A DNA stretch of 64,000 nt from a virus. The DNA is taken from the IMG/VR virus record IMGVR_UViG_3300046170_000450, positions 1 to 64,000 of that record; one strand, given 5' to 3'. Below are positions 29,435 to 43,901 of the stretch, one piece after another; the first letter of the stretch is position 1; each line of letters starts with the position of its first letter. The notes beneath the pieces are model-generated. The model saw only the letters and a program-made list of their open reading frames with translations, was not told where the DNA came from and ran no database searches. The position numbers and the translations under genes are program-made.

Positions 29435-30367
29435 ATGATTACTAAAACTATGTTCAAAAACCTAATCGGTCAAGACGAGGTAAAGCGTCAGCTTTCCTTT
29501 TACGCTAAAGCACAAAATTCTACTGGAGTCGCACCATTTCTTATGTTGAGTGGGGCAAAGGGCTTGGGTAAGACAGAATTCGCCAAGGAGTATGCTTCCA
29601 ACCTCAAGAACAAGGATGGCAGTCAACGCCCATTCCTTGAGATCAACTGCTCCACTATTAAGAATGCTAATGCTTTCTTTGAGCAAATCTTCTTGCCTAT
29701 CGTGATGCATAACGAGATTACCATCCTATTGGACGAGGCACACATGCTTCCCAAGGATTTGGTTAATGCCTTCCTTACTGTATTCAACACAGAGAAGAGC
29801 AACTTCAAAGAGTATCATCATGGTGAACAGATTTTTGCTTTTGATTTTGCCCAACAGAATTTTATCTTCGCTACTACTGAGATGGATAAGTTGTTTGCTC
29901 CCTTCAAGGATCGCCTCACTATTGTGGACTTCAAGCCCTACACAGTTGACGAGCTATCTGAAATTATTGATTTGGTTTGTGGAGAGATCGAGTTTGAAGA
30001 TGGGCTTCTGCAAGACATCGCTGAGACTACAAGGGGCAACGCTCGTTCAGCAGTCAAGCGTTCCAAAGAGATCATGCTCTACTGCGAGTCTGTGAATGAC
30101 AAGGATTATTCCAAGAAGGATTGGGAGAAGATGTCTCACACCTTGGGCATCAAGCCTCTTGGGTTGTCCAACATTGAGATTGAGATTCTCAGCATCCTCA
30201 AGGATCGTGGCAACTGCTCGCTTCAGATGCTATCAGCCGTCACAGGCATGTCTCGCACAGCCATCCAGAAAGAAGCAGAACTCTATCTGCTCAAGCGAGG
30301 TCTGATGAAGATCGATGGTCAACGTGAGATAAGTGGAAAGGGTATGAATATACTACAAAAAATTTAG
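29435..30367 (+). CDS. ruvB: RuvB-like AAA+ Holliday-junction branch-migration helicase
   Basis: LIGQDEVK, Walker A GAKGLGKT, Walker B LLDEAH, ATTE...PFKDR, RGNARSA, C-terminal winged helix. Confidence 0.8.
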   Translation: MITKTMFKNLIGQDEVKRQLSFYAKAQNSTGVAPFLMLSGAKGLGKTEFAKEYASNLKNKDGSQRPFLEINCSTIKNANAFFEQIFLPIVMHNEITILLDEAHMLPKDLVNAFLTVFNTEKSNFKEYHHGEQIFAFDFAQQNFIFATTEMDKLFAPFKDRLTIVDFKPYTVDELSEIIDLVCGEIEFEDGLLQDIAETTRGNARSAVKRSKEIMLYCESVNDKDYSKKDWEKMSHTLGIKPLGLSNIEIEILSILKDRGNCSLQMLSAVTGMSRTAIQKEAELYLLKRGLMKIDGQREISGKGMNILQKI

Positions 30368-30390
30368 TATTAGTTATCATAAATGAGAAT

Positions 30391-30424
30391 TCGGTAGGGT
30401 GTGAAAGCCCTGCCGATTTTTTTT
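30391..30424 (+). terminator. Rho-independent terminator ending the plus-strand block
   Basis: TCGGTAGGG-loop-CCCTGCCGA followed by a T tract. Confidence 0.8.
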
Positions 30425-30541
30425 GCGCCCAAATAAGCTCGACAATCTATACCACATCAAATATAGCTGACAATTCGTATCAAGTCAAATAAAGAGTAAT
30501 ATATATACTATACAAAAAAAAGAATAAGCTGCCAAAATTAC

Positions 30542-30618
30542 ATAAGTTGTTGAATATCAAGGGTTTGCGGGATCGCGGGGGCCCCAGCCCCGCAAGTCAT
30601 TGACTTACAGGGACTTAT
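30542..30618. repeat. 77-bp double-palindrome element, copy 1
   Basis: ATAAGTTGTTGA-ATA-TCAAGGGTTTGC, 23-nt GC spacer, GCAAGTCATTGA-CTT-ACAGGGACTTAT. Confidence 0.95.
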
Positions 30619-30622
30619 GGGA

Positions 30623-30841
30623 TCAGTAGTCTGGTTCGTCAGGCAGGTGATCAAAGTAGTTGCAGGGGTCACGAAACCCAACATCTGCATCAGGGTAGGC
30701 AGCTTGAGCCTCCTCAATGGTGTCGAAGTTATCGACGAAGCGTTTGCAGGTTTGACCCGCAAGCACTGAAGACTCAGGGTATTCCCCGAACTCATAGACG
30801 GAGAAGCCCCCGCCTTTCCCATTTTCTATTGTTTTATCCAT
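30623..30841 (-). CDS. Small acidic hypothetical protein
   Basis: Own TTGACA-16-CATACT promoter, leaderless. Stop lies 5 nt from repeat copy 1. Confidence 0.8.
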   Translation of the reverse strand: MDKTIENGKGGGFSVYEFGEYPESSVLAGQTCKRFVDNFDTIEEAQAAYPDADVGFRDPCNYFDHLPDEPDY

Positions 30842-30903
30842 AACTAACAGTATGGTTATTTTTTTGTGGTTGTCAATAGATTTTTTAAAATTTATTTAAA
30901 TTT

Positions 30904-30980
30904 GTAAGTCGTTCTATATCAAGGAGTTGCGCGTCGGGGTGGGCCCCAGCCCCGCAAGTGCCTGATAGTCAAGCACTTAC
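30904..30980. repeat. 77-bp element, copy 2
   Basis: GTAAGTCGTTCT-ATA-TCAAGGAGTTGC N23 GCAAGTGCCTGA-TAG-TCAAGCACTTAC. Confidence 0.95.
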
Positions 30981-30984
30981 GAAT

Positions 30985-31161
30985 TTAATCGTCGTGGATT
31001 AAATGCGGGCGCGATTTATACCAAGCCCTGATCATTGCAGAAGTCCAATTCTTGGGCTCGCTTTCAAGCCAAGAGCGCGGCTTCTTTTCGTAAAGCTCAA
31101 TCTCTTTAGCCACACGAATTTTTTTCTCTTGTTCCGTTTCTTTTTTAAAGGGTAGTTTCAT
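30985..31161 (-). CDS. Small hypothetical protein (58 aa, not in ORF track)
   Basis: MKLPFKKETEQEKKIRVAKEIELYEKK...PHLIHDD*. Stop lies 5 nt from repeat copy 2. Confidence 0.65.
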   Translation of the reverse strand: MKLPFKKETEQEKKIRVAKEIELYEKKPRSWLESEPKNWTSAMIRAWYKSRPHLIHDD

Positions 31162-31523
31162 TTTAGTCTAATGGTTTTTTGTGTTTGGTTTTTCGGTTGT
31201 ATTTCGATCTGTCAAAAAAAGGGCGGGAGGGCAAAAGCCCTTGCCCCTTGCGAACACTTTTCAAGATGTTCCGAAGATTAAGTTTTGGAGGAATTGATTT
31301 TGCCATTTGCGGGAGTCCTGTTCGGGTGTCCTATTTTCAAGGGTCGTATTAAAGCGCGAGAACTCGTCTTGCAAGTCGGCTTCGGTTGTGGGCAATTGCC
31401 CAATTTGGTCGGTTGGATTTTTTTGTTCACAGATTTTTTTGATTAGGTTATATCGTTCAGTATGATTCATGATTGAGGGTTATTATTAGTAGAATTAAGA
31501 GGGTTAGAACTATTATCATTTTG

Positions 31524-32231
31524 TTAGCCTATAACAAAACCTGTTTCGTCCTTCTTGGCAAGTCCTTTTTGCACAAGTCCTACAATTTTATTTTTACCAT
31601 CCAAGAAACGCAAGTCAGTTTCATCGCCGTTAACAACTTTAACAGACTTCCAAGACTTTGGAAACTCATTGCGAAAGACTGCCGCGACATTTCCGCCAAG
31701 CTTGAGAACCAAGTCAACCAAGTTGTCATTGCATTCACTGCGCGAAAAAGTAAGATGGTAGTTGCTTGGCATTTTACCTTTGAGATATTTTTGCATACGA
31801 GGAAAAGACTTGGTATAATCGTAGAATTGAACATCTGGATACATTTCCATAAGCGAAAGCTTTTTTCCGTCCGATTCAACCTTTATGCTTTCCCAAGGCA
31901 AGTCACTTGTAAGATTAAGACGGAAGCAAGGCTTCATATCTTTTTTTGCGGAAAGCTTAACAGCGTTGCCAATCTCTTTAGCAAGTTGCCAAGTAAAAGC
32001 ATTTTTATCGGCAAAGAATTTTTGTGTTTTTGCAATGCGAGATTTTTGAACATTCGACATCGCGCCACGTCCAGCGGTGTTAAGACAAGCGGCGGCGCAT
32101 CCAGCAGAAGCGTGAGCGCAAACATTTTTGCCAGCTAAGTTAAAAGGCGCAAGGTGCAGACCAAAAGTAGTCCAGCCAAGTTTTTCGCCTTTGATTGTTT
32201 TCGAGTTTCCTGAGTTTAGTAGTTTAGTCAT
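31524..32231 (-). CDS. GP88-like Cys-cluster protein
   Basis: CAHASAGCAAACLNTAGRG, RLNLTSD, QFYDYTK, NYHLTFS, GDETDLRFLD. Confidence 0.7.
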   Translation of the reverse strand: MTKLLNSGNSKTIKGEKLGWTTFGLHLAPFNLAGKNVCAHASAGCAAACLNTAGRGAMSNVQKSRIAKTQKFFADKNAFTWQLAKEIGNAVKLSAKKDMKPCFRLNLTSDLPWESIKVESDGKKLSLMEMYPDVQFYDYTKSFPRMQKYLKGKMPSNYHLTFSRSECNDNLVDLVLKLGGNVAAVFRNEFPKSWKSVKVVNGDETDLRFLDGKNKIVGLVQKGLAKKDETGFVIG

Positions 32232-32348
32232 AAAAGGTATTATCTTATTTTTTATTAGTTAAGTCAAGGGATTTTCTAACAAAATTTAAAAAAACTTTTT
32301 TAAAAAAAGACTTGACAGCCGAGCGAAGAGCTAGGTAAAAAAAGTTTC

Positions 32349-32425
32349 GTAAGTCGTTGAATACCAAGGACTTACGCGTCGCGGGGGGCCGCGGCCCCGC
32401 AAGTCGTTGATTATCAAGCACTTAT
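32349..32425. repeat. 77-bp element, copy 3
   Basis: GTAAGTCGTTGA-ATA-CCAAGGACTTAC N23 GCAAGTCGTTGA-TTA-TCAAGCACTTAT. Confidence 0.95.
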
Positions 32426-32438
32426 GAATGTCAAGTAA

Positions 32439-32471
32439 AAAAGAAAAAGCCCCGCCCTTTCGGGCGAGGCG
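32439..32471 (-). terminator. Terminator after the DUF932-like gene
   Basis: GCCTCGCCC-GAAA-GGGCGGGGC plus a T tract on the minus strand. Confidence 0.75.
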
Positions 32472-32482
32472 GTGAGGCTAGG

Positions 32483-33268
32483 CTAGGAAGCGTTTAAAAC
32501 CAGCTCGCTTTGCGGAGCTTTCGCCCCTGCGTAGGTGTCGAGGACACTATACAGCGAGTTGGAGCGATTCGCCACGTTGAGCGAGTTGCCGCGCCACACG
32601 TTCGTGAAGGCGTTTTGAAGCGACCAAAGGTCACGCCCCTCGAAATTCTCATGCTCTGGCTTGTGCCATTGTCCGAAGATGTCGGCAATTTGAGTTTTGC
32701 CACACGCACCAGCTTGGAAGCCGCGCAAGATAAGATCATGCGCCGTGCGGTCATCAATCTCGCAAGACTTGTAAGAGTCAATGCGATTGTCGGAAGTAGT
32801 CCAAGAATCCATCAACTGCCCAATCGCACGAGAAATGATTTGCGGTAAGTCGCGCATGATGTGAGTAGTATGACGGCGACCAAGCACAATCTCATTAGAG
32901 AAGATCAGATTAGAGCAAACGAAAGGTGCGTCACCTGCCGAGATGCCTGCACGGAACGCTTTGTCGTGCGAGTTGCGGAGGCACATGACTGTGCCAACGT
33001 CATCCCCATGCTTGCGACCTACGCCGCTAACTTGGAAAAGACCAAAGTAGCGTTGCCCGTAGCGGTGCAAAGCATGATGCTCTTGCACAATGTCAAGCGA
33101 AGGGTTGTTGTCGATAGCCGAGCGAAACTCAGAAACCAAAGCATCGTGAGCAACTGGAGTCCAGCGATCAGAAGCCTCTGGAGTTTTCACAGCTTTGACT
33201 TCATCAAAGTCGCATTGCTTTGATTCGCAAACATTAAGGTTGAGGAAGTTTTCGTTGATAGTAACCAT
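32483..33268 (-). CDS. DUF932-like protein
   Basis: LRNSHDKAF, FVCSNLIF, RRHT, LWSLQNAFT. Confidence 0.8.
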   Translation of the reverse strand: MVTINENFLNLNVCESKQCDFDEVKAVKTPEASDRWTPVAHDALVSEFRSAIDNNPSLDIVQEHHALHRYGQRYFGLFQVSGVGRKHGDDVGTVMCLRNSHDKAFRAGISAGDAPFVCSNLIFSNEIVLGRRHTTHIMRDLPQIISRAIGQLMDSWTTSDNRIDSYKSCEIDDRTAHDLILRGFQAGACGKTQIADIFGQWHKPEHENFEGRDLWSLQNAFTNVWRGNSLNVANRSNSLYSVLDTYAGAKAPQSELVLNAS

Positions 33269-33416
33269 AGTATTAGTATTTAGTATTATTATTTAATTGT
33301 GAGATTACATCTTATAAGAAAAGTGGTGTGGTGTCAAGCGTTTATCGAAATAAAAATGAAATATTTTTTGTTTTTAAACTGGCATGGATCTTGAGCCTAG
33401 GAGCAGTCAAGGTTCC

Positions 33417-33494
33417 GTAAGTCGTTGTTTATCAAGGACTTGCGGGCGCGGGGGGGCCGCAGTCCACGCAAGCCGTTGAATATCAACAACTTAT
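33417..33494. repeat. 77-bp element, copy 4 (78 bp; extra base, possibly in the G run)
   Basis: GTAAGTCGTTGT-TTA-TCAAGGACTTGC N24 GCAAGCCGTTGA-ATA-TCAACAACTTAT. Confidence 0.95.
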
Positions 33495-33854
33495 GAGACT
33501 AGCCTTTATCATTGTAGGTGTCACTTCCACAGAGCCGACTTTGACGGGATAGCGATTAGGGTTAGCCACATAGAAAAATCTGTGCGATTGGTAAGGGTTA
33601 TATTTTACCAACTCAACGGGAGTTTTCTTTGGCTGCTCAACTCTTTCGCCAATGATGAAAGCATGAACGTTTTTTCTTTTCTGTTCCAAGACTCTTCTAC
33701 GTCCTGCTTGCGAGACTTCAAAAGAAGCATTGTTCAAAAAGATTTGCTGAACGTGATCTGTAACACGCCAACCTTTTCCCTCGACCCATGATTGAACCGA
33801 AAGGCATTTTTTGTTGAGGTTGCGATAGACTCTGACTTTGTTTTTGTTTACCAT
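33483..33854 (-). CDS. Conserved hypothetical phage protein
   Basis: VRVYRNLNKKCLSVQ...VSQAGRRRVLEQKRKNVHAFIIG. Stop lies inside repeat copy 4. Confidence 0.8.
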   Translation of the reverse strand: MVNKNKVRVYRNLNKKCLSVQSWVEGKGWRVTDHVQQIFLNNASFEVSQAGRRRVLEQKRKNVHAFIIGERVEQPKKTPVELVKYNPYQSHRFFYVANPNRYPVKVGSVEVTPTMIKASLISC

Positions 33855-34028
33855 GCTGTGCTTTGTATTTCTTTTCTGTGTTCTTCGTAGGTTTCGATGT
33901 ACTCCTGCAAGTCGCCAAGTGTTTCAAACCTAGCTAGTTTTTCTTCGTCTTCCATGCACTCTACCACAATGTCTCCACCTTCTTCGTAGTGTTCGTAACA
34001 GTATTCATTTATTTGTTCGATTGTCATA

Positions 34029-34370
34029 TTATAGTTCCTCCCATCCGACTGATTTACACATTAAGGTTGTTGGGTGTCCGTTAGAATCACGGATCTTAAC
34101 GACATCGCCAACGCTTGTCGAGTGAAAAGTTTCCTTGTCCGAGCAGTTTTCCCACAGAGCCAAAAGAATTTTTTCGTGCGCTTTGGTTATAAGCTCAATC
34201 GGTGCGTTGGTTACGTGAAACAAAAGCTCAGCAAGCTTTGACGGAATGTGTGGATAATCGATGTGTTCTGCATTCAGTCGAACAGAGAAAACGCATTTTC
34301 GAGCGACTTCCCATTTCTGAACAAAAGGTTCATCTTCAGAGCGGTGTAGTGATAAGGTTATTGTTTTCAT
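34029..34370 (-). CDS. Hypothetical protein
   Basis: Own promoter. C-terminal STSVGDVV...CKSVGW motif. Confidence 0.75.
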   Translation of the reverse strand: MKTITLSLHRSEDEPFVQKWEVARKCVFSVRLNAEHIDYPHIPSKLAELLFHVTNAPIELITKAHEKILLALWENCSDKETFHSTSVGDVVKIRDSNGHPTTLMCKSVGWEEL

Positions 34371-34408
34371 ATTAGTATAATGTATTATTTTTTGTGATTA
34401 GTCAAGCA

Positions 34409-34699
34409 TTACTTTGCATAAGACGCATCGTAACCATTTTCTTCTAAGATTTGAATAATTGACGGAGATAGAGCAAAAACTCCATCATAGTCAACCAACT
34501 CTTTGCCCTCAAACCAAAGACCTCCTTCGGCATACCATTCTCCTCCTCCTGTTTTTTCATCGTACATTTCAAACGAGCCATAGTTTTTGTTTGGCTGTAC
34601 ATGCACGGATATATTCATCTGCACTCCATTTTCTTCACGGATTGTTCCGAATGAGTTTTCGAGGGCGAGGTCTTCAGTAGTTGTTTTTGTGATGTTCAT
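34409..34699 (-). CDS. Hypothetical protein
   Basis: Own promoter. The -10/start region is identical to that of the 34370 gene. Confidence 0.75.
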   Translation of the reverse strand: MNITKTTTEDLALENSFGTIREENGVQMNISVHVQPNKNYGSFEMYDEKTGGGEWYAEGGLWFEGKELVDYDGVFALSPSIIQILEENGYDASYAK

Positions 34700-34771
34700 A
34701 TTAGTATAATGTATTATTTGATTCGGCGAGTCAACCCCTTTTTTAAAATTTATTTAAATTTATTTAAATTC

Positions 34772-34848
34772 GTAAGTTGTTGATTATCAAGCACTTGCGG
34801 GTCTGCACTGGCCCCCGCCGCGCAAGTCGTTGACCACCAAGGACTTAC
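34772..34848. repeat. 77-bp element, copy 5
   Basis: GTAAGTTGTTGA-TTA-TCAAGCACTTGC N23 GCAAGTCGTTGA-CCA-CCAAGGACTTAC. Confidence 0.95.
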
Positions 34849-34960
34849 AGAACTCTTAATCCATATAGCGAAAAGCCGCCTTACCCCAAACACACAAAGG
34901 GTAAGACGGCACACACACGTTGCACACACTACAACAAAAGAATTCAAGCTGGCTTTAAAA

Positions 34961-35051
34961 TGGCAGAGAAGATGGGATTCGAACCCATGGAACCTTTTTG
35001 AGGTTCACCTCTTTAGCAAAGAAGCGCTTTCGACCGCTCAGCCACTTCTCT
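34961..35051 (-). tRNA. tRNA-Ser (GCT)
   Basis: AGAGAAG/CTTCTCT acceptor stem, anticodon GCT, long variable arm, TTCGAAT, encoded CCA. Confidence 0.95.
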
Positions 35052-35131
35052 AGAAATTTAAGCCGCCTCGCCCTAACCGCAAGATAGTCACAAGACGAGA
35101 CGGCACACACACATGTTACAACAACAAAAGG

Positions 35132-35383
35132 TTAGACAAGTTTAATTTTTTCGATTCTGTGCTTATAGAAAGAACGGATGCCGCTATGCTTCGCGCCAGT
35201 GGCGTAAGAGTAGGTATTGAACATATCGCCCAAGTCTTCAATGAAGTTCATGTCAATGACATAAGAGCCGACAGTTTCATCAGACTTTTTCTTGTAGGTG
35301 ATTTGAGCCATATTATTCTTAGCGAAAGCGCGACGAACAGCAAGGCGGGTTTTTTGGATTGGATTTAGTTTTAGGTTTTTCAT
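35132..35383 (-). CDS. Small WYL/SH3-like protein
   Basis: ITYKKKSDE...GIRSFYKHRIEKI resembles the WYL pattern. Confidence 0.55.
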   Translation of the reverse strand: MKNLKLNPIQKTRLAVRRAFAKNNMAQITYKKKSDETVGSYVIDMNFIEDLGDMFNTYSYATGAKHSGIRSFYKHRIEKIKLV

Positions 35384-36042
35384 GTTTTCTTTTCTCCGTT
35401 TTGGATTTTCGATTGTTAAGATTATATCTTAGCAGATTTTTATGTTATGTCAATACTTTTTTAGGAAGTTTTGCGATTTTTTCTAACAAGTCATTAGCAG
35501 AGTCTACATTAAGGAAGCCTGCGACATCGTCTGTAATTTCTGGGTGTTTGGCAATGCATCCATTCTCATCCAGCAATGCAAGCTCTAAGCCGTAAGAAGA
35601 ATCGTGTAGGACTACAGAAGCTCCATAGCCATTAGGAAACTCAAAAATCTTTTGCCAACCAAAAAGTTCTTTACGTTCGGTTAATGTCATAGTGTGATGA
35701 GAGGTGGATGAGACTTTGAATATTTGTTGTATGGTGTCTTTGTTCATAAGGCGTATAATATTATTATTTGTTTTGGTTGTCAAGGTTTTGTTTGAAGTTT
35801 CTTCTCCACCTCGCAAGACCAAGCATTCCTATGCGCTTGAAGGTCTCCCAATTTGGCTTGGGGTCTGACAGTTCTAGCCATATTTTCATTCTTCGTTTGG
35901 GATCTATATTCACACCTAATAGTATACCAAACCGAATCGAAATAGCAAGCAAATAAATAGCAAATCGAACACTTTTTTACGGCAAATAGTGTAAAGTATT
36001 GATAGTCAAGGACTTCGGGAACAAAAAAAACTTACAGGTTCT

Positions 36043-36119
36043 GTAAGTTGCTGACTATCAAAGACTTGCGGGTCGGGGCGGGCCCTGGCCTCGCAAGTCG
36101 TTGAGAAACAAGGACTTAC
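36043..36119. repeat. 77-bp element, copy 6 (extra isolated palindrome at 35991-36017)
   Basis: GTAAGTTGCTGA-CTA-TCAAAGACTTGC N23 GCAAGTCGTTGA-GAA-ACAAGGACTTAC. Confidence 0.95.
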
Positions 36120-36310
36120 ACAGTCCCAACGTGCTCCCCGTCGCGCTCGATCGCCCAGCCCTCGTAGAGGTCGATATGCCTCACGTCACCACGCCCAACA
36201 GTAGGGCAGTAGATCATGGCGAGTTGCCCGCAAGAATAGGTGAACATCACCTGCACAGTGCGAGCGTGGTTGCGAGTCGGGCGGAGGAGATCGTCTTTTT
36301 TGATTATCAT
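36116..36310 (-). CDS. Small hypothetical protein
   Basis: Leaderless promoter. TAA stop supplied by repeat copy 6. Confidence 0.75.
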   Translation of the reverse strand: MIIKKDDLLRPTRNHARTVQVMFTYSCGQLAMIYCPTVGRGDVRHIDLYEGWAIERDGEHVGTV

Positions 36311-36382
36311 GACTACAGTCTAACAAAAAAAATCGTTCTGTCAACTGTTTTTTTAAAAAAAATTAAAAAAAATTTAGATTAC

Positions 36383-36459
36383 ATAAGTTATTGATCACCA
36401 AGTACTTGCGCCGCTCACGCCGCCCCCGCCCCGCAAGTCGTTGACTATCAAGGACTTAT
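36383..36459. repeat. 77-bp element, copy 7
   Basis: ATAAGTTATTGA-TCA-CCAAGTACTTGC N23 GCAAGTCGTTGA-CTA-TCAAGGACTTAT. Confidence 0.95.
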
Positions 36460-36654
36460 GAGTTCCTCTTCTCTCTCTTCGCGGACTAGGTCAAAGACCT
36501 CGGCTAGGGTCTTCACCTCACCCGTTTCGCCGTTGGTGAGGGTTTCCTTGTTGCCACAAGGCTCGCAGAATTCGAGCCAGTCGCTACCGAGAACGAGGGT
36601 GTTGGTACCGCCCATAGGGCGGCGAGTGTCGCAGAAACAGCAATGATCAGCCAT
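36448..36654 (-). CDS. Small CxxC...CxxC zinc-binding protein
   Basis: CCFCD...FCEPCG. Stop lies inside repeat copy 7. Confidence 0.7.
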   Translation of the reverse strand: MADHCCFCDTRRPMGGTNTLVLGSDWLEFCEPCGNKETLTNGETGEVKTLAEVFDLVREEREEELISP

Positions 36655-36923
36655 AATTTTTTGTGTGGTTAGGGTTAGCGGAAGTCAGCGTTGTGCATGA
36701 GTTCCTGTTGGAAAAGTCGCTCTTGGCGTTGAGCCTCGCCACGCTCGCGCTCGGATTGCTCGCGAAGCATTGCAGTTTCAAACTCGGCGAACTCAGCCTC
36801 GGACAAGTCAGCCCAAGGGTCGAAGGAAGCAGGAGTGGCGGAAGGAGTGGATGTATTTTTGATTGTCATAATTAAAAGAATAAGAAAAAAGGTTAGGCTG
36901 TCAAGGCTTTTGCGAAAAAAAGA

Positions 36924-37163
36924 TTAGAAATCTGACATTCTTTCTTCGCGTTCCATCGCGTCCCAAGCCTCGTCGTCGAGTTGCTTTTGAGAAGGGACAG
37001 GAAGCGGAGCGACCTCGTCGAGGCGAGAGACGGGAACCCACTGTTCGCCGCCATCTTCATCCAAGACCCAAGCGAGACCCATCTTGACGTCACCGACAAA
37101 GACAGGGATGGAAAGATCGAGGAGGGCTTCTGTGCCAGATTTGATTTGTGTTGTAGTTATCAT
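36924..37163 (-). CDS. Small acidic protein, probable paralogue of 40814..41044
   Basis: Shared pattern ALL..VFV.D..V.D.DG.E..V..L. Own promoter. Confidence 0.7.
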   Translation of the reverse strand: MITTTQIKSGTEALLDLSIPVFVGDVKMGLAWVLDEDGGEQWVPVSRLDEVAPLPVPSQKQLDDEAWDAMEREERMSDF

Positions 37164-37289
37164 ACGAGTATTGTATCAGAGAAAATCGGAAAAGTCAACC
37201 CCTAAACGCATCTTTTTTTGCTTTTTTTTAACTTTTTTTTCGTGCGGCAGATTGGCACGGCAATTGACACGAGCGCAGTTCGGGGTTTC

Positions 37290-37366
37290 GTAAGTCGTTG
37301 TATATCAAGCACTTGCGCGGCGGGGCGGGCCCCCGACCCGTAAGTCGTTGACTATCAGTAACTTAC
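37290..37366. repeat. 77-bp element, copy 8
   Basis: GTAAGTCGTTGT-ATA-TCAAGCACTTGC N23 GTAAGTCGTTGA-CTA-TCAGTAACTTAC. Confidence 0.95.
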
Positions 37367-37791
37367 AGATGCTTTGAGACCTTTGTCCAATAAATTTCTA
37401 GATTTTTTTGCTTTTGGTCGCTCTTTGGATTTGCAACACGCTTCCAAGCTGATCCGCCCCCGTTCCATATAAAAGCAAGATGTTTTGCGTTTAACTTTTC
37501 ACCATTGCGTTTGATATACTTTTCATAGTGACGAAAGATTCCGATTGCGATATTGTGAGAAGTCAAGCGGTTTGACATTTGCTGATGTTTTACATTCGTG
37601 CCGTAGATACGATTATAGTCGTCCAACATGATTGGTCTGATCTGAAGAGAGCCTAACGCTTTTTCGCTTTCGTTATAAGCAGAAGGATTGCAATTGCTTT
37701 CCACTTTTTCTAAAGCAATAATTAAATCAGTTAATGTTGCACCTTGCGCGATTGATGCGCAGATGGCGAATATTAGTATTAGTTTTTTCAT
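37363..37791 (-). CDS. Secreted lysozyme-like / lytic transglycosylase protein
   Basis: Signal peptide, catalytic 'VES', 'GSLQI', 'WNGG'. TAA lies inside repeat copy 8. Confidence 0.8.
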   Translation of the reverse strand: MKKLILIFAICASIAQGATLTDLIIALEKVESNCNPSAYNESEKALGSLQIRPIMLDDYNRIYGTNVKHQQMSNRLTSHNIAIGIFRHYEKYIKRNGEKLNAKHLAFIWNGGGSAWKRVANPKSDQKQKNLEIYWTKVSKHL

Positions 37792-38368
37792 AGTGTTTTT
37801 TTAAAAAACTTTCGATTTCGTTTTGAGGATGTAGGCTCATACAAGAAAAGTAACGTTTATCGGTTTTCCTTCTGGGTGCATTTCAGATATCCCCCTATAG
37901 TGTAAGGGAATGTCTTCTACATAGGTCGATGCCCCGTGGTATTTTGTGCGCACGTAGCACTTAGCGTTTTGCGGCATTTCTTTTAGCTTCGCGATCACCT
38001 CCGCAACTGTAGGTGCGTCCCCGTATTTCCTGTATTTAGTTTCCATTATTTAAAACATCGCCTTTGATACTGCCTTTGACACTTCCCCAGATATTGCCCC
38101 TAACATCTCTGTAGATATTGCCGCCGACATAGCCTCCAATAGAGCCTTTTACATTGCCTCTGATACTGCCTTCAATAGTACCCCTAACATCGCTCCATAT
38201 ATTACCTTCTACAAAGCCATAAACATAGCCGTGGATATCGCCTTCGACATTCAAAACCCTAAGGTTTCCCTCGGAGTCGCGTTTGAACGAAACGAGTTTT
38301 TTGATTTCTTCTAGTGTTGGTTCTTTTTTCATAGTGTTTTTTTAAAAAACTTTCGATTTCGTTTTGAG
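37783..38368. repeat. Exact 45-bp direct repeat (37783-37827 and 38324-38368) bracketing two genes
   Basis: ttttttcatagtgtttttttaaaaaactttcgatttcgttttgag occurs twice. Confidence 0.9.
38036..38332 (-). CDS. Small protein with G-x-I/V-x tetrapeptide repeats
   Basis: VEGDIHGYVYGFVEGNIWSDVRGTIEGSIRGNVKGSI... Confidence 0.75.
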   Translation of the reverse strand: MKKEPTLEEIKKLVSFKRDSEGNLRVLNVEGDIHGYVYGFVEGNIWSDVRGTIEGSIRGNVKGSIGGYVGGNIYRDVRGNIWGSVKGSIKGDVLNNGN

Positions 38369-38589
38369 ACACAGAGAACCCCGTCAGAGTATCCAATGTC
38401 CGTGGCGTATCCAGATTTTATAAATTTGCGCTCTAATTCTTGGAGCCGTAAGTGATAGTGGCACTCTTCGTAGTCTGTTGGCACATATATGCGAACGACC
38501 ATTTCTAGTGGTTCGTCTGGCGTCATTCCCCACCCGATATGTTTTCTTTGAAATGTTAGCTTCATAGTTTATATTGGTTTGTAGTATGG

Positions 38590-38769
38590 TTATTTTTGTT
38601 CGATTGTCAAGCGATTTTGGAAAGTTTTTTCCATTAATTTTTGCTCGGTGCGACCATAGATTGCGCCCCAATTCTTGGCAGGGATCGCAGGGTAGAGTTT
38701 GCGTTGAGTGTTGTAGCTCGCTTGCGTGAGGTGGTCGATTACCGAATCAATTTCTTTATTTGTTATCAT
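38590..38769 (-). CDS. 59-aa protein, copy A (not in ORF track)
   Basis: MITNKEIDSVIDHLTQASYNTQRKLYPAIPAKNWGAIYG... Leaderless promoter. Paralogue at 40571. Confidence 0.8.
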   Translation of the reverse strand: MITNKEIDSVIDHLTQASYNTQRKLYPAIPAKNWGAIYGRTEQKLMEKTFQNRLTIEQK

Positions 38770-38839
38770 GCTTACAGTATGGGGATAAAAACGAGAAAGT
38801 CAACCCTTTTTTTAATTTTTTTAACTTTTTTTCAGTTGC

Positions 38840-38916
38840 GTAAGTCATTCACTATCAAGCACTTGCGTGGCGCGGGCGGCCCTGGCCCCGCAAGTCGTTG
38901 ATATTCAAGGACTTAC
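38840..38916. repeat. 77-bp element, copy 9
   Basis: GTAAGTCATTCA-CTA-TCAAGCACTTGC N23 GCAAGTCGTTGA-TAT-TCAAGGACTTAC. Confidence 0.95.
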
Positions 38917-39050
38917 ATGATTGCGTTTATCGCAACCCCTGAGACGGTGTCAAACATTTTTTGAAACCAGCCAATTTTGTTTGCGATGAAGTAAGTGCAA
39001 GCCGCGATTGTCAAGCAAATTGCAGTTGTTTTGTCAATTATTATTTTCAT
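38913..39050 (-). CDS. 45-aa hydrophobic peptide (not in ORF track)
   Basis: MKIIIDKTTAICLTIAACTYFIANKIGWFQKMFDTVSGVAINAIM*. TAA lies inside repeat copy 9. Confidence 0.65.
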   Translation of the reverse strand: MKIIIDKTTAICLTIAACTYFIANKIGWFQKMFDTVSGVAINAIM

Positions 39051-39364
39051 TTTATTTTATTGCGTTGTCGATTTCCTCAAAGCGATGCCAAGAGCTTTCT
39101 TTGATTTGTTGAGCTTTGTCGTCGAGCTTAAGCCCGACGAACATTGCTAACCCAAGAATTAATCCAAAAAGAACAAGAGCTAAAATTTCCCAAATTTTCA
39201 TTTTTTTTATTCTCCGATTGGGTAGCCTTGCTCTATCCAAGCTTGGCGTTGTAAGTCTTCTCTTTCAGTCTCTCGGTCGAGCGACATGATTAGAAAAGCA
39301 GTAAGGACTCCACACATTACAAGTAGGCAGAGGGCGAGGGTTTTTGTTTCGTTGTCCATTAGTA

Positions 39365-39622
39365 TTATTTTGATTGGTGGTATTCAGCCATATATTGAAC
39401 GCTTCTTTCAAGCTTGTCAAGTATATCTTGAGGGTTAATTCCTTCAGCGATCTTGAGGTTGTTAAGAATCTCTACGTCGCTAGCACGACCGCCGAGTTCA
39501 CGACCGAAGCCATAGCGACCATCTGTAAAAGAACAGCGACCATAAGTGATATCAGTCAAAACCATAGGCTTGTTGTCAACGATGTAAGCCTTACCGAGTG
39601 TGAGTGTGTTTAGTGTTTCCAT
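39365..39622 (-). CDS. Hypothetical protein
   Basis: Own leaderless TTGACA..CATACT promoter. Confidence 0.75.
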   Translation of the reverse strand: METLNTLTLGKAYIVDNKPMVLTDITYGRCSFTDGRYGFGRELGGRASDVEILNNLKIAEGINPQDILDKLERSVQYMAEYHQSK

Positions 39623-39685
39623 GATTAACAGTATGTTTATTTTTGTGTGATTGTCAAGCGATTTTGGAAAGTTTTTTGAGAATTA

Positions 39686-39829
39686 TTAAAGATCCAAAAG
39701 AAGCGTTTCCCAAGTATCAAGCTCGGCGGCGTGGAACTCTGCCTTGTCAAGATCATTCTTTTCAAGTGCTTTTTCGTAACGAGCCTTGTGCAGGGCAATT
39801 TTCTTTTGTATGGATTCTTTTTTAAGCAT
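39686..39829 (-). CDS. 47-aa helical protein (not in ORF track)
   Basis: MLKKESIQKKIALHKARYEKALEKNDLDKAEFHAAELDTWETLLLDL*. Leaderless promoter. Confidence 0.7.
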   Translation of the reverse strand: MLKKESIQKKIALHKARYEKALEKNDLDKAEFHAAELDTWETLLLDL

Positions 39830-39929
39830 GATTACAGTATGGTTAAAAGTAGTGGAAAGTCAAGCGGTTTTTTTAAAAAAAGTAAAAAAAAGTTTTTTTA
39901 AATTGGCACGGAGTTTGAACAGCGGTTTC

Positions 39930-40006
39930 GTAAGTGCTTGATTACCAAGGACTTGCGCGGCGCGGGGGGCCGCAGGCTCGCAAGTCGCTGATATTCAACG
40001 ACTTAC
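39930..40006. repeat. 77-bp element, copy 10
   Basis: GTAAGTGCTTGA-TTA-CCAAGGACTTGC N23 GCAAGTCGCTGA-TAT-TCAACGACTTAC. Confidence 0.95.
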
Positions 40007-40014
40007 GAAGTTGG

Positions 40015-40197
40015 CTAAGGGTTCTGGTCGACGACTTCGTCGCCGCACCAGATCATCCAATCTTGACAAGGGCGGGCGAACTCGTAAGCCGCATCAAGAC
40101 CTCGGCGAGACTTCGGAAAGTCGCGAACTTGTTCAAGCATTTCGCCTGAGTTAGAAAAATCTGCGGTAGTGACTGTGTATTTTTTATTGTTTATCAT
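40015..40197 (-). CDS. Small hypothetical protein
   Basis: Own promoter. Stop lies 9 nt from repeat copy 10. Confidence 0.75.
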   Translation of the reverse strand: MINNKKYTVTTADFSNSGEMLEQVRDFPKSRRGLDAAYEFARPCQDWMIWCGDEVVDQNP

Positions 40198-40570
40198 GTA
40201 TACTACAATAGGGATTCAAGCGGTGATGTCAAGCTTATCGTAAACTTTTTTTAATTTTTTTTAACGATTCTTTAGGCGAACCATCACATCTTTATTTTCT
40301 TCAAGGGTCTGAGCGAAAAGAGCGTCGCAAAACACTCGCCATTCTTCTTCAGTGATGATGCCATCGTTGAGAGCGAACCACATCTTTTGATATTCTGCGC
40401 GTGTAATTTTATCTTTCATAATTATTTGCATTCGGATTTTTCGAGACGGACTAAGCCGCGAACTTCTAAGCAAGAAGCGATGAAGTCAGCCCAGTCATAA
40501 TCCATTTCATCGAGGGCTGCCCAGTATTGGCGAGAGAAGTGCAGTTGTTCATTCATGTTTTATAGTATGG

Positions 40571-40750
40571 TTATTTTTGTGCGATTGTCAACTGTTTTTG
40601 AAAATTATTTTCAAGTTTTTTAGCCACGCCCTCGCCGTAGACTTTGCCCCAGCGACCAGCTTTGATCTCTGGGTAGAGTTTGCGTTGCGTGTTGTAGCTC
40701 ACTTGCGTGAGGTGGTCAATGACGTTGTCGATTTCTTTATTGCTTATCAT
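40571..40750 (-). CDS. 59-aa protein, copy B (not in ORF track)
   Basis: MISNKEIDNVIDHLTQVSYNTQRKLYPEIKAGRWGKVYG... Confidence 0.8.
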   Translation of the reverse strand: MISNKEIDNVIDHLTQVSYNTQRKLYPEIKAGRWGKVYGEGVAKKLENNFQKQLTIAQK

Positions 40751-40813
40751 GTCTTACAGTATGGCTAAAAGTTGGGGCTTGTCAAGCTTATCGCAAAGTT
40801 TTTTTAATTTTTT

Positions 40814-41044
40814 TTAGTAGCGACCTATGCGAGCTAGAGATTTTTCTTCGCGAAGAAAGCTCTCTTCTTTTTCTTCTTCGCTCTCGATCAACTCGTCTTG
40901 TTCCAAGTCGCCGTATTTGACGAAGAACTCGCGACCGTCATCATCGGAAACAAGCACTTGTGGATAAAAGCCGTATGCGTCAATGACGAAGACAGTTGAG
41001 TTGTCAGTTGTGAGGAGAGCGGATTTGTTTTCTATTATGTTCAT
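40814..41044 (-). CDS. Small acidic protein, first gene of the cassette region
   Basis: Own TTGACA promoter, leaderless. Confidence 0.75.
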   Translation of the reverse strand: MNIIENKSALLTTDNSTVFVIDAYGFYPQVLVSDDDGREFFVKYGDLEQDELIESEEEKEESFLREEKSLARIGRY

Positions 41045-41248
41045 GCTTTATAGAATGTAAAATTTCGCACACGATGTCAAGCCCTCAGATAAAAAAAACA
41101 ATTTTTTTTTTGCGATTACCCTACCCTATTGTTAAACAAATGCGTCCAGAGAAACACAGAACAAGCGGGGGGGAGGGTTTTCTAAAAGTCTCAACACATT
41201 TTCACCATAGCAAATTACTTAAGTGCGAAAAAAACCCAGACCCTATTT

Positions 41249-42376: not shown

Positions 42377-42412
42377 AATATATTTTTATTCATTTCAGTT
42401 TATTTTTAAAAT

Positions 42413-42487
42413 TGGTACTCCGACCAGGATTCGAACCTGGAACGCAAGATTAGAAGTCATGTGTTATATCCCTTTAACTATCGGAGC
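42413..42487 (-). tRNA. tRNA-Arg (TCT)
   Basis: GCTCCGA/TCGGAGT, loop CT-TCT-AA, CCA. Confidence 0.92.
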
Positions 42488-43002: not shown

Positions 43003-43046
43003 GAGTGTGTATACTATTAGCCCCAAAATAAAAGTCAAGCTAAAAA

Positions 43047-43121
43047 TGGTGGGCCCTGAGAATTACGATATCTCGACCTAACGATTATGAGTCGTTTGCT
43101 CTTCCTCTGAGCTAAAGGCCC
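43047..43121 (-). tRNA. tRNA (CAT), Ile2-like, atypical T arm
   Basis: GGGCCTTTAGCTCA...CGACTCATAATCG resembles Ile2 tRNAs. T loop ATCGTAA. Confidence 0.8.
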
Positions 43122-43124
43122 TAA

Positions 43125-43640: not shown

Positions 43641-43645
43641 CAAGA

Positions 43646-43722: not shown

Positions 43723-43728
43723 ATAAAA

Positions 43729-43803: not shown

Positions 43804-43810
43804 TTAAAGG

Positions 43811-43893: not shown

Positions 43894-43901
43894 AAAAAAA
43901 G

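What the first reader, a model, noticed from the sequence alone, without database searches (positions are those of the whole stretch)
30542..40006. Array of ten fixed-geometry 77-bp double-palindrome elements delimiting promoter+gene cassettes
Seen: ten copies (30542, 30904, 32349, 33417, 34772, 36043, 36383, 37290, 38840, 39930) of RTAAGTCGTTGA-N3-TCAAGGACTTGC, 23-nt GC-rich spacer, GCAAGTCGTTGA-N3-TCAAGGACTTAY. Spacer sequence varies but its length is 23 in nine of ten copies, with a central GGCC in most. Outer ends (GTAAG/CTTAC) and inner ends (CTTGC/GCAAG) mostly match each other, so the whole unit is also one long inverted repeat. Units between copies are 0.26-1.5 kb and hold one to several tiny genes with their own promoters. 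Stop codons fall inside copies 4, 6, 7, 8, 9 and within 5-9 nt of copies 1, 2, 10. Known: this layout recalls integron attC cassettes (four boxes, variable centre, stop codon in the first box) and T4-type PeSL cassette shuffling, but the sequence matches neither as I know them. Inference: an undescribed phage cassette-shuffling system, or a protein-binding scaffold on the early region. No recombinase is visible in the window.
Basis: partly seen in the sequence, partly recalled or inferred. Interest (0 to 1): 0.92.

Follow-up and report, generated by a model that had tools for sequence, protein, structure and literature searches.

The report
Twin IHF-like palindromes bounding phage cassettes
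Ten rigid 77-bp DNA modules, each two mirror-symmetric docking-type sites around a GC-rich core, sit between the early gene units of an uncultured marine phage; they look like protein-bound upstream-promoter or boundary elements rather than an integron-like recombination system.

Summary
All ten copies lie at the stated coordinates (29 motif hits against 0.01 expected; printout).

The element belongs to a large family that I did not find in print. There are 910 palindromes and 401 paired elements in 118 IMG/VR loci plus this contig.

Each palindrome reads YAA-N4-TTGA-TWA-TCAA-N4-TTR. That is two inverted IHF consensus halves, with the TT and AA steps 9 bp apart.

- Mirrored positions do not covary.
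- A canonical terminator lies between a gene and one element.
- The promoter-proximal palindrome is in 10.5-bp register with the -35 box of the next promoter (115 non-redundant cases, 0 of 5000 permutations).

I therefore read the elements as DNA-level docking modules for a bending protein of the IHF/HU kind, placed upstream of leaderless early promoters.

Relatives have reordered cassettes with junctions inside elements. However, promoters without an element are junctions just as often (76% against 77%; mid-gene 12%). No tyrosine or serine recombinase was found. The integron-like reading is not supported. The closest known kind is the PeSL of T4-type phages.

This scan has already reported the same family at least eight times on other genomes, with the same reading.

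The parts
30542..30618 (.). Element copy 1 (two palindromes + 23-nt GC-rich centre); last of the array, next to the convergent RuvB-like gene
   Evidence: gene 30623-30841(-) stops 5 nt away
30904..30980 (.). Element copy 2
   Evidence: promoter 30876-30849(-) follows; palindrome centre to -35 = 41 bp
32349..32425 (.). Element copy 3
   Evidence: preceded by the canonical terminator at 32470-32449(-)
33417..33494 (.). Element copy 4 (24-nt centre, palindromes 51 bp apart)
   Evidence: TGA stop of gene 33483-33854(-) lies in the TTGA of the palindrome
34772..34848 (.). Element copy 5, downstream of tRNA-Ser(gct)
36043..36119 (.). Element copy 6
   Evidence: stop of gene 36116-36310(-) inside
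35993..36015 (.). Degenerate single palindrome next to copy 6; its TTGACT reads as a -35-like hexamer
36383..36459 (.). Element copy 7 (the only centre without GGCC)
37290..37366 (.). Element copy 8
   Evidence: stop of the SLT-domain gene 37363-37791(-) inside
38840..38916 (.). Element copy 9
39930..40006 (.). Element copy 10 (first in the direction of transcription)
32440..32470 (-). Canonical intrinsic terminator (9-bp GC stem + T run) between the DUF932 gene and copy 3
30849..39863 (-). Sigma-70-type promoters that follow the elements on the minus strand. First-hexamer starts: 39863, 38803, 37198, 36344, 35948, 34734, 33337, 32267, 30876, 30535. In most, the ATG comes 6-7 nt after the -10 box (leaderless).
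33380..33394 (+). Sigma-54-like box TGGCAT-N5-TTGA pointing into copy 4 (box start to palindrome centre 50 bp)
37253..37267 (+). Sigma-54-like box TGGCAC-N5-TTGA pointing into copy 8 (50 bp)
39904..39918 (+). Sigma-54-like box TGGCAC-N5-TTGA pointing into copy 10 (39 bp; the expected start site falls on the first base of the element)
29435..30367 (+). RuvB homologue (AAA+ domain plus RuvB C-terminal winged helix), convergent with the array; same position in relatives L186 and L189

Best explanation
Each 77-bp element is a DNA-level architectural module at the junction of two early transcription units.

**Palindromes.** The two 27-29-bp palindromes are symmetric binding sites for a dimeric DNA-bending protein. 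A host IHF/HU-type protein is the most likely binder. Both halves carry the WATCAR-N4-TTR consensus, and the two kinkable TT/AA steps are 9 bp apart, as in the IHF-DNA complex.

**Centre.** The 84% G+C centre is a stiff spacer of fixed length. It is partly dyad-symmetric and may add a hairpin barrier to read-through.

**Action on the promoter.** The promoter-proximal palindrome sits a whole number of helical turns upstream of the -35 box of the next sigma-70-type, mostly leaderless promoter, with an A/T-rich tract between them. The bound, bent module therefore most likely activates or insulates that promoter. The upstream gene simply ends in or next to the module.

**Recombination.** The module and the promoters are repeated many times in one orientation. 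They therefore also serve as short homology patches at which ordinary recombination gains, loses and reorders cassettes.

**Shown:** the sequence anatomy, the family-wide conservation pattern, the lack of covariation, the helical register, and the mosaic junctions.

**Inferred:** the identity of the binder, the bending, and the effect on transcription.
For: 1. **Conservation across 910 sites.** The near-invariant positions are those specified by the IHF consensus:
- A1/T23 99.9%; T8 100%; A16 99.8%; C15 93%.
- Position 17 is A or G in 908 of 910 sites.
- Position 24 is a purine in 876 of 908 sites.
- 711 of 1816 half-sites match WATCARNNNNTTR exactly.

In the window, WATCAANNNNTTR occurs 21 times against 7.4 expected (0 of 100 shuffles reach 21). 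Fifteen of these lie in the ten elements and one in the degenerate site.

2. **Kink geometry.** IHF kinks DNA at two steps 9 bp apart, with WATCAR between the kinks and TTR in the flank (passages of bioRxiv 10.1101/382655). In the palindrome the T7-T8 and A16-A17 steps are 9 bp apart (read from the sequence).

3. **No covariation.** Mirrored positions show no compensatory covariation, whether paired locally or across the element. Mutual information is at most 0.16 bits, and positions 7/19 form Watson-Crick pairs in only 23-33% of 401 elements.

4. **Helical register.** The distance from the centre of the proximal palindrome to the -35 box clusters at about 19, 30, 41, 52, 61, 70, 81, 92 and 104 bp.
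- Vector length is 0.49 at a 10.5-bp period for 126 cases.
- It is 0.436 for 115 non-redundant cases, and 0 of 5000 random sets reach this.
- The phase is the same in all three spacing classes.
- In this window, by my own arithmetic on the distances printed, six of the eight promoters found by the pattern fit the phase (41, 50, 51, 52, 93, 105 bp).

5. **Separate terminators exist.** Canonical terminators with T runs are present, one of them between the DUF932 gene and copy 3.

6. **Bacterial genomes.** The same 23-mer is rare (1-2 per genome in 5 genomes) and sits where IHF sites are expected.
- 7 element-motif pairings, involving 6 of the 11 stringent sigma-54 promoter matches in 420.6 kb of flanks, lie within 150 bp of it. 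In three Planctomycetota loci the centre is 41 bp upstream of TGGCA.
- Three sites lie beside tRNA genes.

7. **No RNA family.** No Rfam family matches the array at E up to 0.1.
Against: - No binding was measured, and the host is unknown.
- No IHF/HU gene (PF00216) is present in this contig (64% complete) or in G001 (83% complete), so the binder would have to be a host protein.
- The 'N' positions of the IHF consensus are also fairly conserved here (G3 79%, T4 88%, A20 89%, C21 77%). This may mean a more sequence-specific protein than IHF.
- The two palindromes are 40-53 bp apart depending on the phage. Their mutual phasing is therefore not conserved, and 50 bp is not a whole number of turns.
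- Both strands are predicted to fold into one long imperfect hairpin (-27 to -41 kcal/mol, z -1.8 to -5.0).
- The centres differ in sequence between phages yet stay GC-rich and partly dyad-symmetric (0.52 against 0.39 in shuffles), which an RNA or hairpin role would also explain.
- Two of the eight phased distances in this window are off phase (67 and 80 bp).
- Sites were collected by likeness to the consensus, which limits the power of the covariation test.
Confidence: 0.5

Rival explanations
1. The palindromes are operators for a specific dimeric regulator other than IHF/HU, encoded by the phage or the host. For example, a shut-off repressor or roadblock could bind all early-unit junctions at once. 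Alternatively, a sigma-54 activator could use the pair as an enhancer.
For: - About 20 of the 29 palindrome positions are conserved, including positions that the IHF consensus leaves free.
- Sites come in pairs of fixed spacing within a phage, as enhancer or operator pairs do.
- Sigma-54-type boxes are strongly linked to the elements: 111 in the viral loci against 3 for the reversed pattern, and 51 at 39-50 bp from a palindrome centre.
- Related phages drive cassettes from canonical sigma-54 promoters, with palindromes 55-56 bp (and one further pair spacing) upstream of the TGGCA box start, that is centred near -80 and -125 by my count.
- The helical register fits any DNA-bound factor.
Against: - No protein family is shared by most element-bearing loci. 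The commonest families (DUF932 35, L5 gp82-like 31, GP88 22 of 118 loci) have no known DNA-binding role.
- The conservation pattern and its degeneracies (W, R) follow the IHF consensus closely.
- The neighbouring AAA+ protein is a RuvB homologue over its whole length, not an enhancer-binding protein.
Confidence: 0.2
2. The element acts as RNA. A long imperfect hairpin at the 3' end of each early transcript would terminate transcription, be cut by RNase III, or protect the mRNA from 3' exonucleases.
For: - Position at the ends of transcription units, with stop codons inside or within 9 nt of eight copies.
- Predicted hairpins of -27 to -41 kcal/mol on either strand.
- A GC-rich, partly dyad-symmetric centre whose sequence differs between phages.
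- A small terminator-like hairpin plus T run built from the end of copy 6.
Against: - No compensatory changes in 401 elements.
- A constant C.C or G.G mismatch in this clade.
- No T run follows nine of the ten copies. The scan called terminator-like sites only at copy 6, and the total was no higher than in shuffles (16 against 13.4).
- A canonical terminator precedes copy 3.
- Invariant primary sequence with a variable apex is the reverse of what terminators show.
- Register with the next promoter is a property of double-stranded DNA.
- The element's orientation relative to the genes is not constant across phages.
Confidence: 0.15
3. The elements are miniature inverted-repeat mobile elements (MITE/Correia- or REP/BIME-like) that spread within the phage genome and carry an IHF site.
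For: - The whole unit is a long inverted repeat with TA-containing ends.
- Centres are more alike within a genome than between genomes in several phages.
- Correia elements and BIMEs carry IHF sites, and many such repeats lie at the 3' ends of genes (passages of PMC3184786).
Against: - Copies are confined to one 8.6-9.5-kb region, in one orientation, and always in front of a promoter.
- Orthologous copies are stable between relatives. For example, a centre differs at 1 of 23 nt between this phage and L186.
- No empty site or target duplication was seen.
- Bacterial genomes carry only 1-2 copies.
- No tyrosine or serine recombinase was found. A Y1/RAYT transposase was not searched for.
Confidence: 0.05
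4. An integron-like site-specific recombination system: the elements are attC-like sites at which a dedicated recombinase excises and inserts cassettes.
For: - Cassette order differs between relatives, and two cassettes are swapped in L189 with homology ending inside elements.
- 71 of 93 element pairs that share a flank share only one.
- One DNA contig joins the edge of copy 4 to the first base of copy 10 (31 letters on the short side).
Against: - Element-less promoters are junctions equally often: 67 of 87 and 114 of 166, against 9 of 76 at mid-gene points.
- No tyrosine or serine recombinase in G000 or G001.
- Fixed length and conserved sequence, whereas attC sites conserve structure.
- Every cassette has its own promoter.
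- Population variants mostly lack single genes from promoter to promoter.
Confidence: 0.03

Closest known systems
PeSLs (promoter-early stem-loops) of T4-type phages (Comeau et al. 2014, PMC4122927, parts 1-2 of 3 read; Arbiol et al. 2010, PMC2839356, search listing only)
   Same: - A composite intergenic motif in a hyperplastic early region: a stem-loop-like GC element, then an A/T-rich tract, then a sigma-70-type promoter and the start codon.
- Repeated between small ORFs.
- Found at insertions, deletions and replacements between close relatives, explained by homologous recombination.
   Different: - PeSL stem-loops are short, simple hairpins (GN-loop-CN and the like). Here the GC core is flanked by two 27-29-bp palindromes conserved across hundreds of contigs, at rigid spacing and in helical register with the promoter.
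- There is no Shine-Dalgarno sequence (leaderless).
- The phage has siphovirus-type tail genes and is not T4-like.
- Mini-circles are not shown here.
IHF binding sites and IHF-assisted promoters (lambda H' site; sigma-54 promoters with an IHF site between enhancer and promoter)
   Same: - The consensus WATCAR-N4-TTR, including its degenerate positions.
- A 9-bp distance between the kinkable steps.
- Position upstream of promoters on one face of the helix.
- In bacterial genomes the same 23-mer lies upstream of sigma-54 promoters.
- The general architecture of sigma-54 promoters is recalled from textbook knowledge, not from a call.
   Different: - Known IHF sites are asymmetric, with the consensus in one half and an A-tract in the other. 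These sites carry the consensus in both halves, come in rigid pairs around a GC core, and also conserve the 'N' positions.
- Binding is untested.
BIMEs (REP clusters with an IHF site) of E. coli and Correia elements of Neisseria (review PMC3184786, passages read)
   Same: Repeated, palindromic, partly GC-rich intergenic units at the 3' ends of genes that carry IHF sites, and sometimes promoters, and are associated with recombination.
   Different: - Those are dispersed chromosomal repeats in hundreds of copies, with the IHF site in the middle. Here the IHF-like sites are on the outside.
- The copies form one local array in a phage.
- Bacterial genomes hold only 1-2 copies of the motif.
Integron attC sites
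   Same: An array of co-oriented small gene cassettes separated by imperfect inverted repeats with a variable centre. Stop codons lie in or near the first box.
   Different: - No integrase was found.
- Fixed rather than variable length.
- Sequence rather than structure is conserved.
- The cassettes have their own promoters.
- Junctions are not specific to the elements.

Membership tests
PeSL (T4-type promoter-early stem-loop) | Stem-loop directly upstream of an A/T-rich tract, a sigma-70-like early promoter and the start of the next gene | tested here: met
   Every element is followed within about 30-105 bp by a sigma-70-like promoter. The GC core is G-run then C-run. No Shine-Dalgarno sequence: the ATG comes 6-7 nt after the -10 box.
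PeSL (T4-type promoter-early stem-loop) | Located in hyperplastic regions and at indels or replacements between close relatives | tested here: met
   Junctions occur at elements (76%) and equally at bare promoters (77%), against 12% at mid-gene points.
PeSL (T4-type promoter-early stem-loop) | Occurs in T4-like myoviruses; simple short stem-loop | tested here: not met
   Lambda-J-type central tail fibre and minor tail proteins. The best cultured-phage TerL matches are under 30% identical. The element has twin 27-29-bp palindromes that PeSLs lack.
PeSL (T4-type promoter-early stem-loop) | Excision of mini-circles between tandem copies | not testable with these tools
   Only assembled contigs could be laid.
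IHF binding site | Consensus WATCAR-N4-TTR | tested here: met
   711 of 1816 half-sites match exactly. Degenerate positions follow W, R and R. Window: 21 matches against 7.4 expected, 16 of them in the array.
IHF binding site | Two kinks 9 bp apart, WATCAR between them, TTR in the flank | tested here: inconclusive
   The TT and AA steps of the palindrome are 9 bp apart, which fits the geometry quoted. This is sequence inference only.
IHF binding site | Bound and bent by IHF of the host | not testable with these tools
   The host is unknown. No IHF/HU gene in the phage contigs.
Integron (attC + IntI) | Tyrosine recombinase IntI beside the array | tested here: not met
   PF00589 gave 0 matches in G000 (64% complete) and G001 (83% complete). 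PF00239 also gave 0. The genomes are incomplete.
Integron (attC + IntI) | attC: variable length, conserved folded structure with unpaired bases, little sequence conservation | tested here: not met
   Length is fixed within a phage. The sequence is invariant at many positions. No covariation.
Integron (attC + IntI) | Promoterless cassettes read from one common promoter | tested here: not met
   About 20 minus-strand promoters in 10 kb.
Intrinsic terminator | GC-rich hairpin followed directly by a T run | tested here: not met
   Terminator-like calls touch only copy 6. Canonical terminators lie elsewhere (30391-30416, 32470-32449). Total 16 against 13.4 in shuffles.
MITE / REP-BIME | Dispersed copies, presence/absence polymorphism with target duplication, cognate transposase (RAYT or IS) | tested here: inconclusive
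   Copies are confined to one array. No empty site was seen. Y1/RAYT was not searched.
Rfam RNA families | Match to a curated covariance model | tested here: not met
   Only tRNAs, and weak antisense-of-tRNA hits, at E up to 0.1 in 29000-45000.

The most novel reading that the evidence does not exclude
The elements are docking platforms of fixed geometry at which a host IHF-type bender and sigma-54 RNA polymerase are brought together. The sigma-54-type box points into the palindrome at 39-50 bp whatever the gene direction, so its start site falls on or just before the element. On this reading a whole group of aquatic phages uses host sigma-54, either as a parked closed complex that insulates units or as an activator-dependent antisense switch that shuts early cassettes off. 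In relatives it is also the main cassette promoter. I did not find such a sigma-54-based layer of phage gene control in print.
Probability: 0.12. Interest if true: 0.85.

Novelty: new variant of a known kind. Interest (0 to 1): 0.6.

Why it matters
If the reading holds, a large group of uncultured marine and freshwater phages shares one conserved, rigid DNA module. The module recruits a host bending protein to organise dozens of tiny leaderless early genes. The elements and the bare promoters together supply the seams at which those genes are exchanged.

That would give:
- a testable handle on how early 'accessory' regions of phages are both regulated and diversified;
- a sequence tag for finding such regions in metagenomes;
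- a natural set of symmetric, apparently optimal IHF-type sites, of use for studying DNA bending and for synthetic promoter design.

The link with sigma-54-type boxes hints at phage use of host sigma-54, which my paper searches did not find in print.

Tried and rejected
**Cultured relatives.**
- Megablast of the array found nothing in 50,697 phage records.
- blastn of one element also found nothing.
- TerL matches cultured phages only at 22-28% identity.

**Literature.**
- Four 10-mers of the motif returned only primer and unrelated hits in the 20 of 432 papers listed.
- 'phage + IHF + palindromic repeat + intergenic' gave nothing relevant among the 15 of 20 papers listed. I checked passages of PMC6293099; they were irrelevant.
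- The sigma-54 and phage terms gave 4 papers, of which 3 were listed and none was relevant by title or abstract.
- I have therefore not found the family in print in these searches. Subscription journals and supplementary files were not searched.

**Phage-encoded binder or recombinase.**
- PF00216, PF00589 and PF00239 gave no match in G000 or G001.
- In one search four of the five records were not held and so were not searched.
- PHROG and Pfam scans of 50 proteins gave no integrase.

**Sequencing runs.** Only contigs could be laid.
- The phage is in at least 14 seawater DNA runs.
- The 16 listed RNA pieces do not bridge any element, while listed DNA contigs bridge nine of the ten. However, 251 pieces were not shown and contigs break at repeats, so this says nothing firm about transcript ends.
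- The joint 33498 to 39930 (edge of copy 4 to the first base of copy 10) rests on one contig with 31 letters on the short side, which is too weak to count as a circle or a deletion.
- Other joints skip single genes (40260 to 40428, about 39053 to 39213, 40193 to 40553, 40558 to 40753).

**Crossover mapping.** The per-position identity profile of one-flank-only pairs suggests exchange inside the element. The samples (29 and 42 non-independent pairs) are too small to fix a position.

**Host.** 16 of 59 bacterial stretches with the motif are labelled Planctomycetota, but each of five genomes holds only 1-2 copies. I name no host.

**Neighbouring enzymes.** I considered that the RuvB homologue and the endonuclease-VII/HNH-like protein process extruded cruciforms. 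I rejected this as a main reading. The HNH gene is found in only 3 of 118 loci, and GC-rich centres and mismatched arms disfavour extrusion (the second point is recalled knowledge).

Full report
**1. The observation.** A motif search for AAGTCGTTGA-N3-TCAAGGACTT (up to 3 mismatches) gave 29 hits against 0.01 expected, and all but one lie in the ten reported copies. The printout shows ten units of 77 nt (78 in copy 4). Each unit is a 27-nt palindrome RTAAGT..TTGA-N3-TCAA..ACTTRC, a 23-nt centre (24 in copy 4), and the palindrome again. GGCC is present in 9 of 10 centres. The gaps between copies are 264-1474 bp.

All genes of the region lie on the minus strand. Stop codons fall inside copies 4, 6, 7, 8 and 9, and 5-9 nt from copies 1, 2 and 10. 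Copy 3 follows its gene at 58 nt, and copy 5 follows tRNA-Ser.

The window is part of an 86,911-bp IMG/VR record that CheckV puts at 64% complete, and the motif occurs only at 30.5-40 kb.

**2. The phage.**
- It has a lambda-J-type central tail fibre, minor tail proteins, a large terminase, rIIA/rIIB and 12 tRNA genes.
- No close cultured relative exists.
- It is held by at least 14 seawater metagenome runs.
- A full-length RuvB homologue (29435-30367) abuts the array, convergent with it.
- An HNH endonuclease lies at 41249-42376.

- With mismatches allowed, these loci plus this contig hold 910 palindromes and 401 paired elements.
- Pairs come in discrete spacing classes (40-42, 46, 48-50 and 52-53 bp) that are fixed within a phage.
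- The centre averages 84% G+C and is modestly dyad-symmetric (0.52 against 0.39 in shuffles; 325 of 401 above their own shuffle mean).
- In the relative G001 (112,801 bp, 83% complete) all 19 sites lie within 8.6 kb.
- In 596 Gb of bacterial genomes the pattern occurs in only 59 stretches, mostly once each. The multi-copy ones are small contigs that look like phage.

**4. What the palindrome reads like.** The position counts give YAA-N4-TTGA-TWA-TCAA-N4-TTR. The near-invariant positions are those specified by the IHF consensus WATCAR-N4-TTR, in both halves.
- A1/T23 99.9%; T8 100%; A16 99.8%; C15 93%.
- Position 17 is A or G in 908 of 910 sites.
- Position 24 is a purine in 876 of 908 sites.
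- 711 of 1816 half-sites match the consensus exactly.
- In the window the stricter WATCAANNNNTTR occurs 21 times against 7.4 expected, and 16 of these lie in the array.

Another first-stage note on this same stretch had pointed to the IHF likeness. I tested it on the family.

Passages of bioRxiv 10.1101/382655 state that IHF kinks DNA at two steps 9 bp apart, with WATCAR between the kinks, one kink inside the consensus, and TTR in the flank. In the palindrome the TT (7-8) and AA (16-17) steps are 9 bp apart. One dimer could therefore use both halves symmetrically. This is inference from the sequence.

The free positions of the consensus are also fairly conserved here (G3 79%, T4 88%, A20 89%, C21 77%). 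This leaves room for a more specific binder.

**5. DNA or RNA?** Both strands fold into one long imperfect hairpin. Against a role as RNA:
- Across 401 elements, mirrored positions carry no compensatory signal, whether paired within a palindrome or across the element. Mutual information is at most 0.16 bits, and positions 7/19 pair in only 23-33% of elements.
- In this clade the arms always keep a C.C mismatch on the sense strand.
- A canonical terminator (GC stem plus T run) lies between the DUF932 gene and copy 3, and another ends the RuvB-like gene. Of the ten elements only copy 6 touches terminator-like calls, and these are no more frequent than in shuffles (16 against 13.4).
- No Rfam family matches.
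- The orientation of the slight asymmetry relative to the genes is not constant across phages.

**6. Register with the promoter.** Each element is followed by a sigma-70-type promoter. The distance from the centre of the proximal palindrome to the first T of the -35 box clusters near 19, 30, 41, 52, 61, 70, 81, 92 and 104 bp.
- Vector length is 0.49 at a 10.5-bp period for 126 cases.
- After removing look-alike intervals, 115 cases give 0.436, and 0 of 5000 random sets reach this. The phase is the same for all spacing classes.
- In this window the distances printed are 41, 50, 51, 52, 93 and 105 bp (in phase by my own arithmetic) and 67 and 80 bp (off phase).

Face-of-the-helix dependence is a property of proteins bound to double-stranded DNA. 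This is the strongest single argument for the DNA-level reading.

**7. Shuffling.** Gene-order strings for this phage and four relatives (82-88% amino-acid identity in DUF932) show different cassette content. In L189 the DUF932 cassette and the GP88 cassette are swapped, and the homology ends inside elements.

| Class of point | Pairs sharing at least one flank | Share both flanks | Share only one flank |
|---|---|---|---|
| Elements (137 with 50-bp spacing) | 93 | 22 | 71 (76%) |
| Promoters with no element within 200 bp, strict pattern | 87 | 20 | 67 (77%) |
| Promoters with no element, loose pattern | 166 | 52 | 114 (69%) |
| Mid-gene points | 76 | 67 | 9 (12%) |

(The first version of this comparison is; the counts above are, where the strict promoter set was slightly re-filtered. 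Pairs with an ambiguous second flank are left out.)

The control changes the reading. The region is a gene-by-gene mosaic whose seams are the intergenic regulatory sequences in general, and the elements are not special among them.

Population data agree: contigs in the seawater runs lack single genes from promoter to promoter. No tyrosine or serine recombinase is present in G000 or G001.

**8. Sigma-54-type boxes.** A separate first-stage note listed TGGCAYG-N4-TTGA boxes in front of copies 4, 8 and 10.
- In the viral loci, TGGCA[CT]-N5-TTG[ACT] occurs 111 times against 3 for the reversed pattern. Of these, 51 point into a palindrome whose centre is 39-50 bp from the box start.
- Their direction follows the palindrome, not the genes: 17 are antisense to both neighbours, 12 sense, 9 between convergent genes and 5 between divergent genes.
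- Relatives such as L115, L125, L100 and L102 have near-consensus sigma-54 promoters in front of cassettes, with palindromes upstream.
- In the bacterial flanks, 7 element-motif pairings, involving 6 of the 11 stringent sigma-54 promoter matches, lie within 150 bp of the palindrome. In three related Planctomycetota loci the palindrome centre is 41 bp upstream of TGGCA. One Ectopseudomonas site lies just before a gene that I read by eye as fliD.

This fits a bender site of the kind that sigma-54 promoters use (textbook knowledge, recalled). It also keeps a sigma-54-linked role open.

**9. Comparison with known systems.**
- In layout and in evolutionary behaviour the element with its promoter is closest to the PeSLs of T4-type phages: a stem-loop, an A/T-rich tract, a sigma-70-like promoter and a start codon, at indels in hyperplastic regions, explained by homologous recombination (PMC4122927).
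- It differs in four ways: the twin conserved palindromes, the rigid spacing, the helical register, and the leaderless starts. The phage is also not T4-like.
- BIMEs and Correia elements share the combination of palindromic repeat, IHF site and 3'-end position (PMC3184786), but they are dispersed chromosomal repeats.
- The features of attC and integrons were tested and not met.

**10. Earlier work of this scan.** At least eight follow-up reports on other genomes describe the same family and reach the same reading: IHF-like twin palindromes, PeSL-like, cassette seams. They are not independent evidence.

- the promoter and mid-gene controls for the seams;
- the covariation test on 401 elements;
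- the terminator in front of copy 3;
- the bacterial sigma-54 contexts.

**Verdict.**
- Most likely (0.5) it is a protein-bound, IHF-type architectural module acting on the next early promoter.
- It is one of two kinds of recombination seam in a mosaic early region.
- It is not an integron-like system.
- Novelty: a new variant of a known kind.
- Interest: 0.6.

Noticed in passing
window 30849-40785, minus strand: Most early promoters are fused to leaderless genes. In 14 of the 17 minus-strand promoters that I paired by hand with an ORF start, the ATG begins 6-7 nt after the -10 hexamer, with no Shine-Dalgarno sequence (coordinates; the pairing and count are my own reading).
   Followed up: partly
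window 33380-33394, 37253-37267, 39904-39918 (+); viral loci L100, L102, L115, L125 and others: Sigma-54-type boxes point into the palindromes at a fixed 39-50 bp, whatever the gene direction (111 against 3 for the reversed control; 51 at that distance). Several relatives appear to drive cassettes from near-consensus sigma-54 promoters.
   Followed up: partly
window 29435-30367 (+): A phage-encoded RuvB homologue aligned over residues 8-292 to solved RuvB structures (E 2e-13). It lies next to the array here and in L186 and L189, and is found in 11 of 118 element-bearing loci.
   Followed up: partly
window 41249-42376 (-): A 375-aa HNH endonuclease (PHROG 'endonuclease VII', Pfam HNH) between the array and the tRNA cluster. 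It is present in only 3 of 118 loci, so it is probably a free-standing homing-type endonuclease.
   Followed up: partly
window 40571-40750 and 38590-38769 (-): Two paralogues of a 59-aa protein family (F1). The last codons (..LTI.QK) contain the TTGACA -35 box of the next gene's promoter, so gene and promoter travel together.
   Followed up: no
window 43811-43893 (-): ARAGORN calls one member of the 12-tRNA set with a four-base anticodon (ccat). Rfam still scores it as a tRNA at 48.5 bits. Another first-stage note covers it.
   Followed up: no
window 40260-40428, 39053-39213, 40193-40553, 40558-40753: Seawater DNA and RNA-library contigs carry variants lacking single small genes, with junctions at gene or promoter boundaries.
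   Followed up: partly
L186:12275-12391 and L188:12272-12388: A composite with three palindromes. The first two are separated by a 17-nt centre that is not GC-rich, and the second and third by the usual 23-nt GC-rich centre. L186:6514 holds a solo palindrome that looks like a deletion between the two halves of an element.
   Followed up: no
L201 (Aureliella genome), L204 (Ectopseudomonas khazarica), L146, L178, L182: In bacterial genomes the same 23-bp palindrome is single-copy and lies just upstream of sigma-54-type promoters. In Ectopseudomonas it lies in front of a gene whose product I read by eye as the flagellar cap protein FliD.
   Followed up: partly
L100:4814-5494 and 13 other element-bearing loci: A family of about 226 aa whose N-terminal part looks by eye like region 2 of sigma-70-family factors. 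It was not tested against any library.
   Followed up: no
window 30444-30535 (-): After the last element (copy 1), two or three sigma-70-like promoter matches face the 3' end of the convergent RuvB-like gene, with no ORF in between. This may be an antisense or orphan promoter.
   Followed up: no
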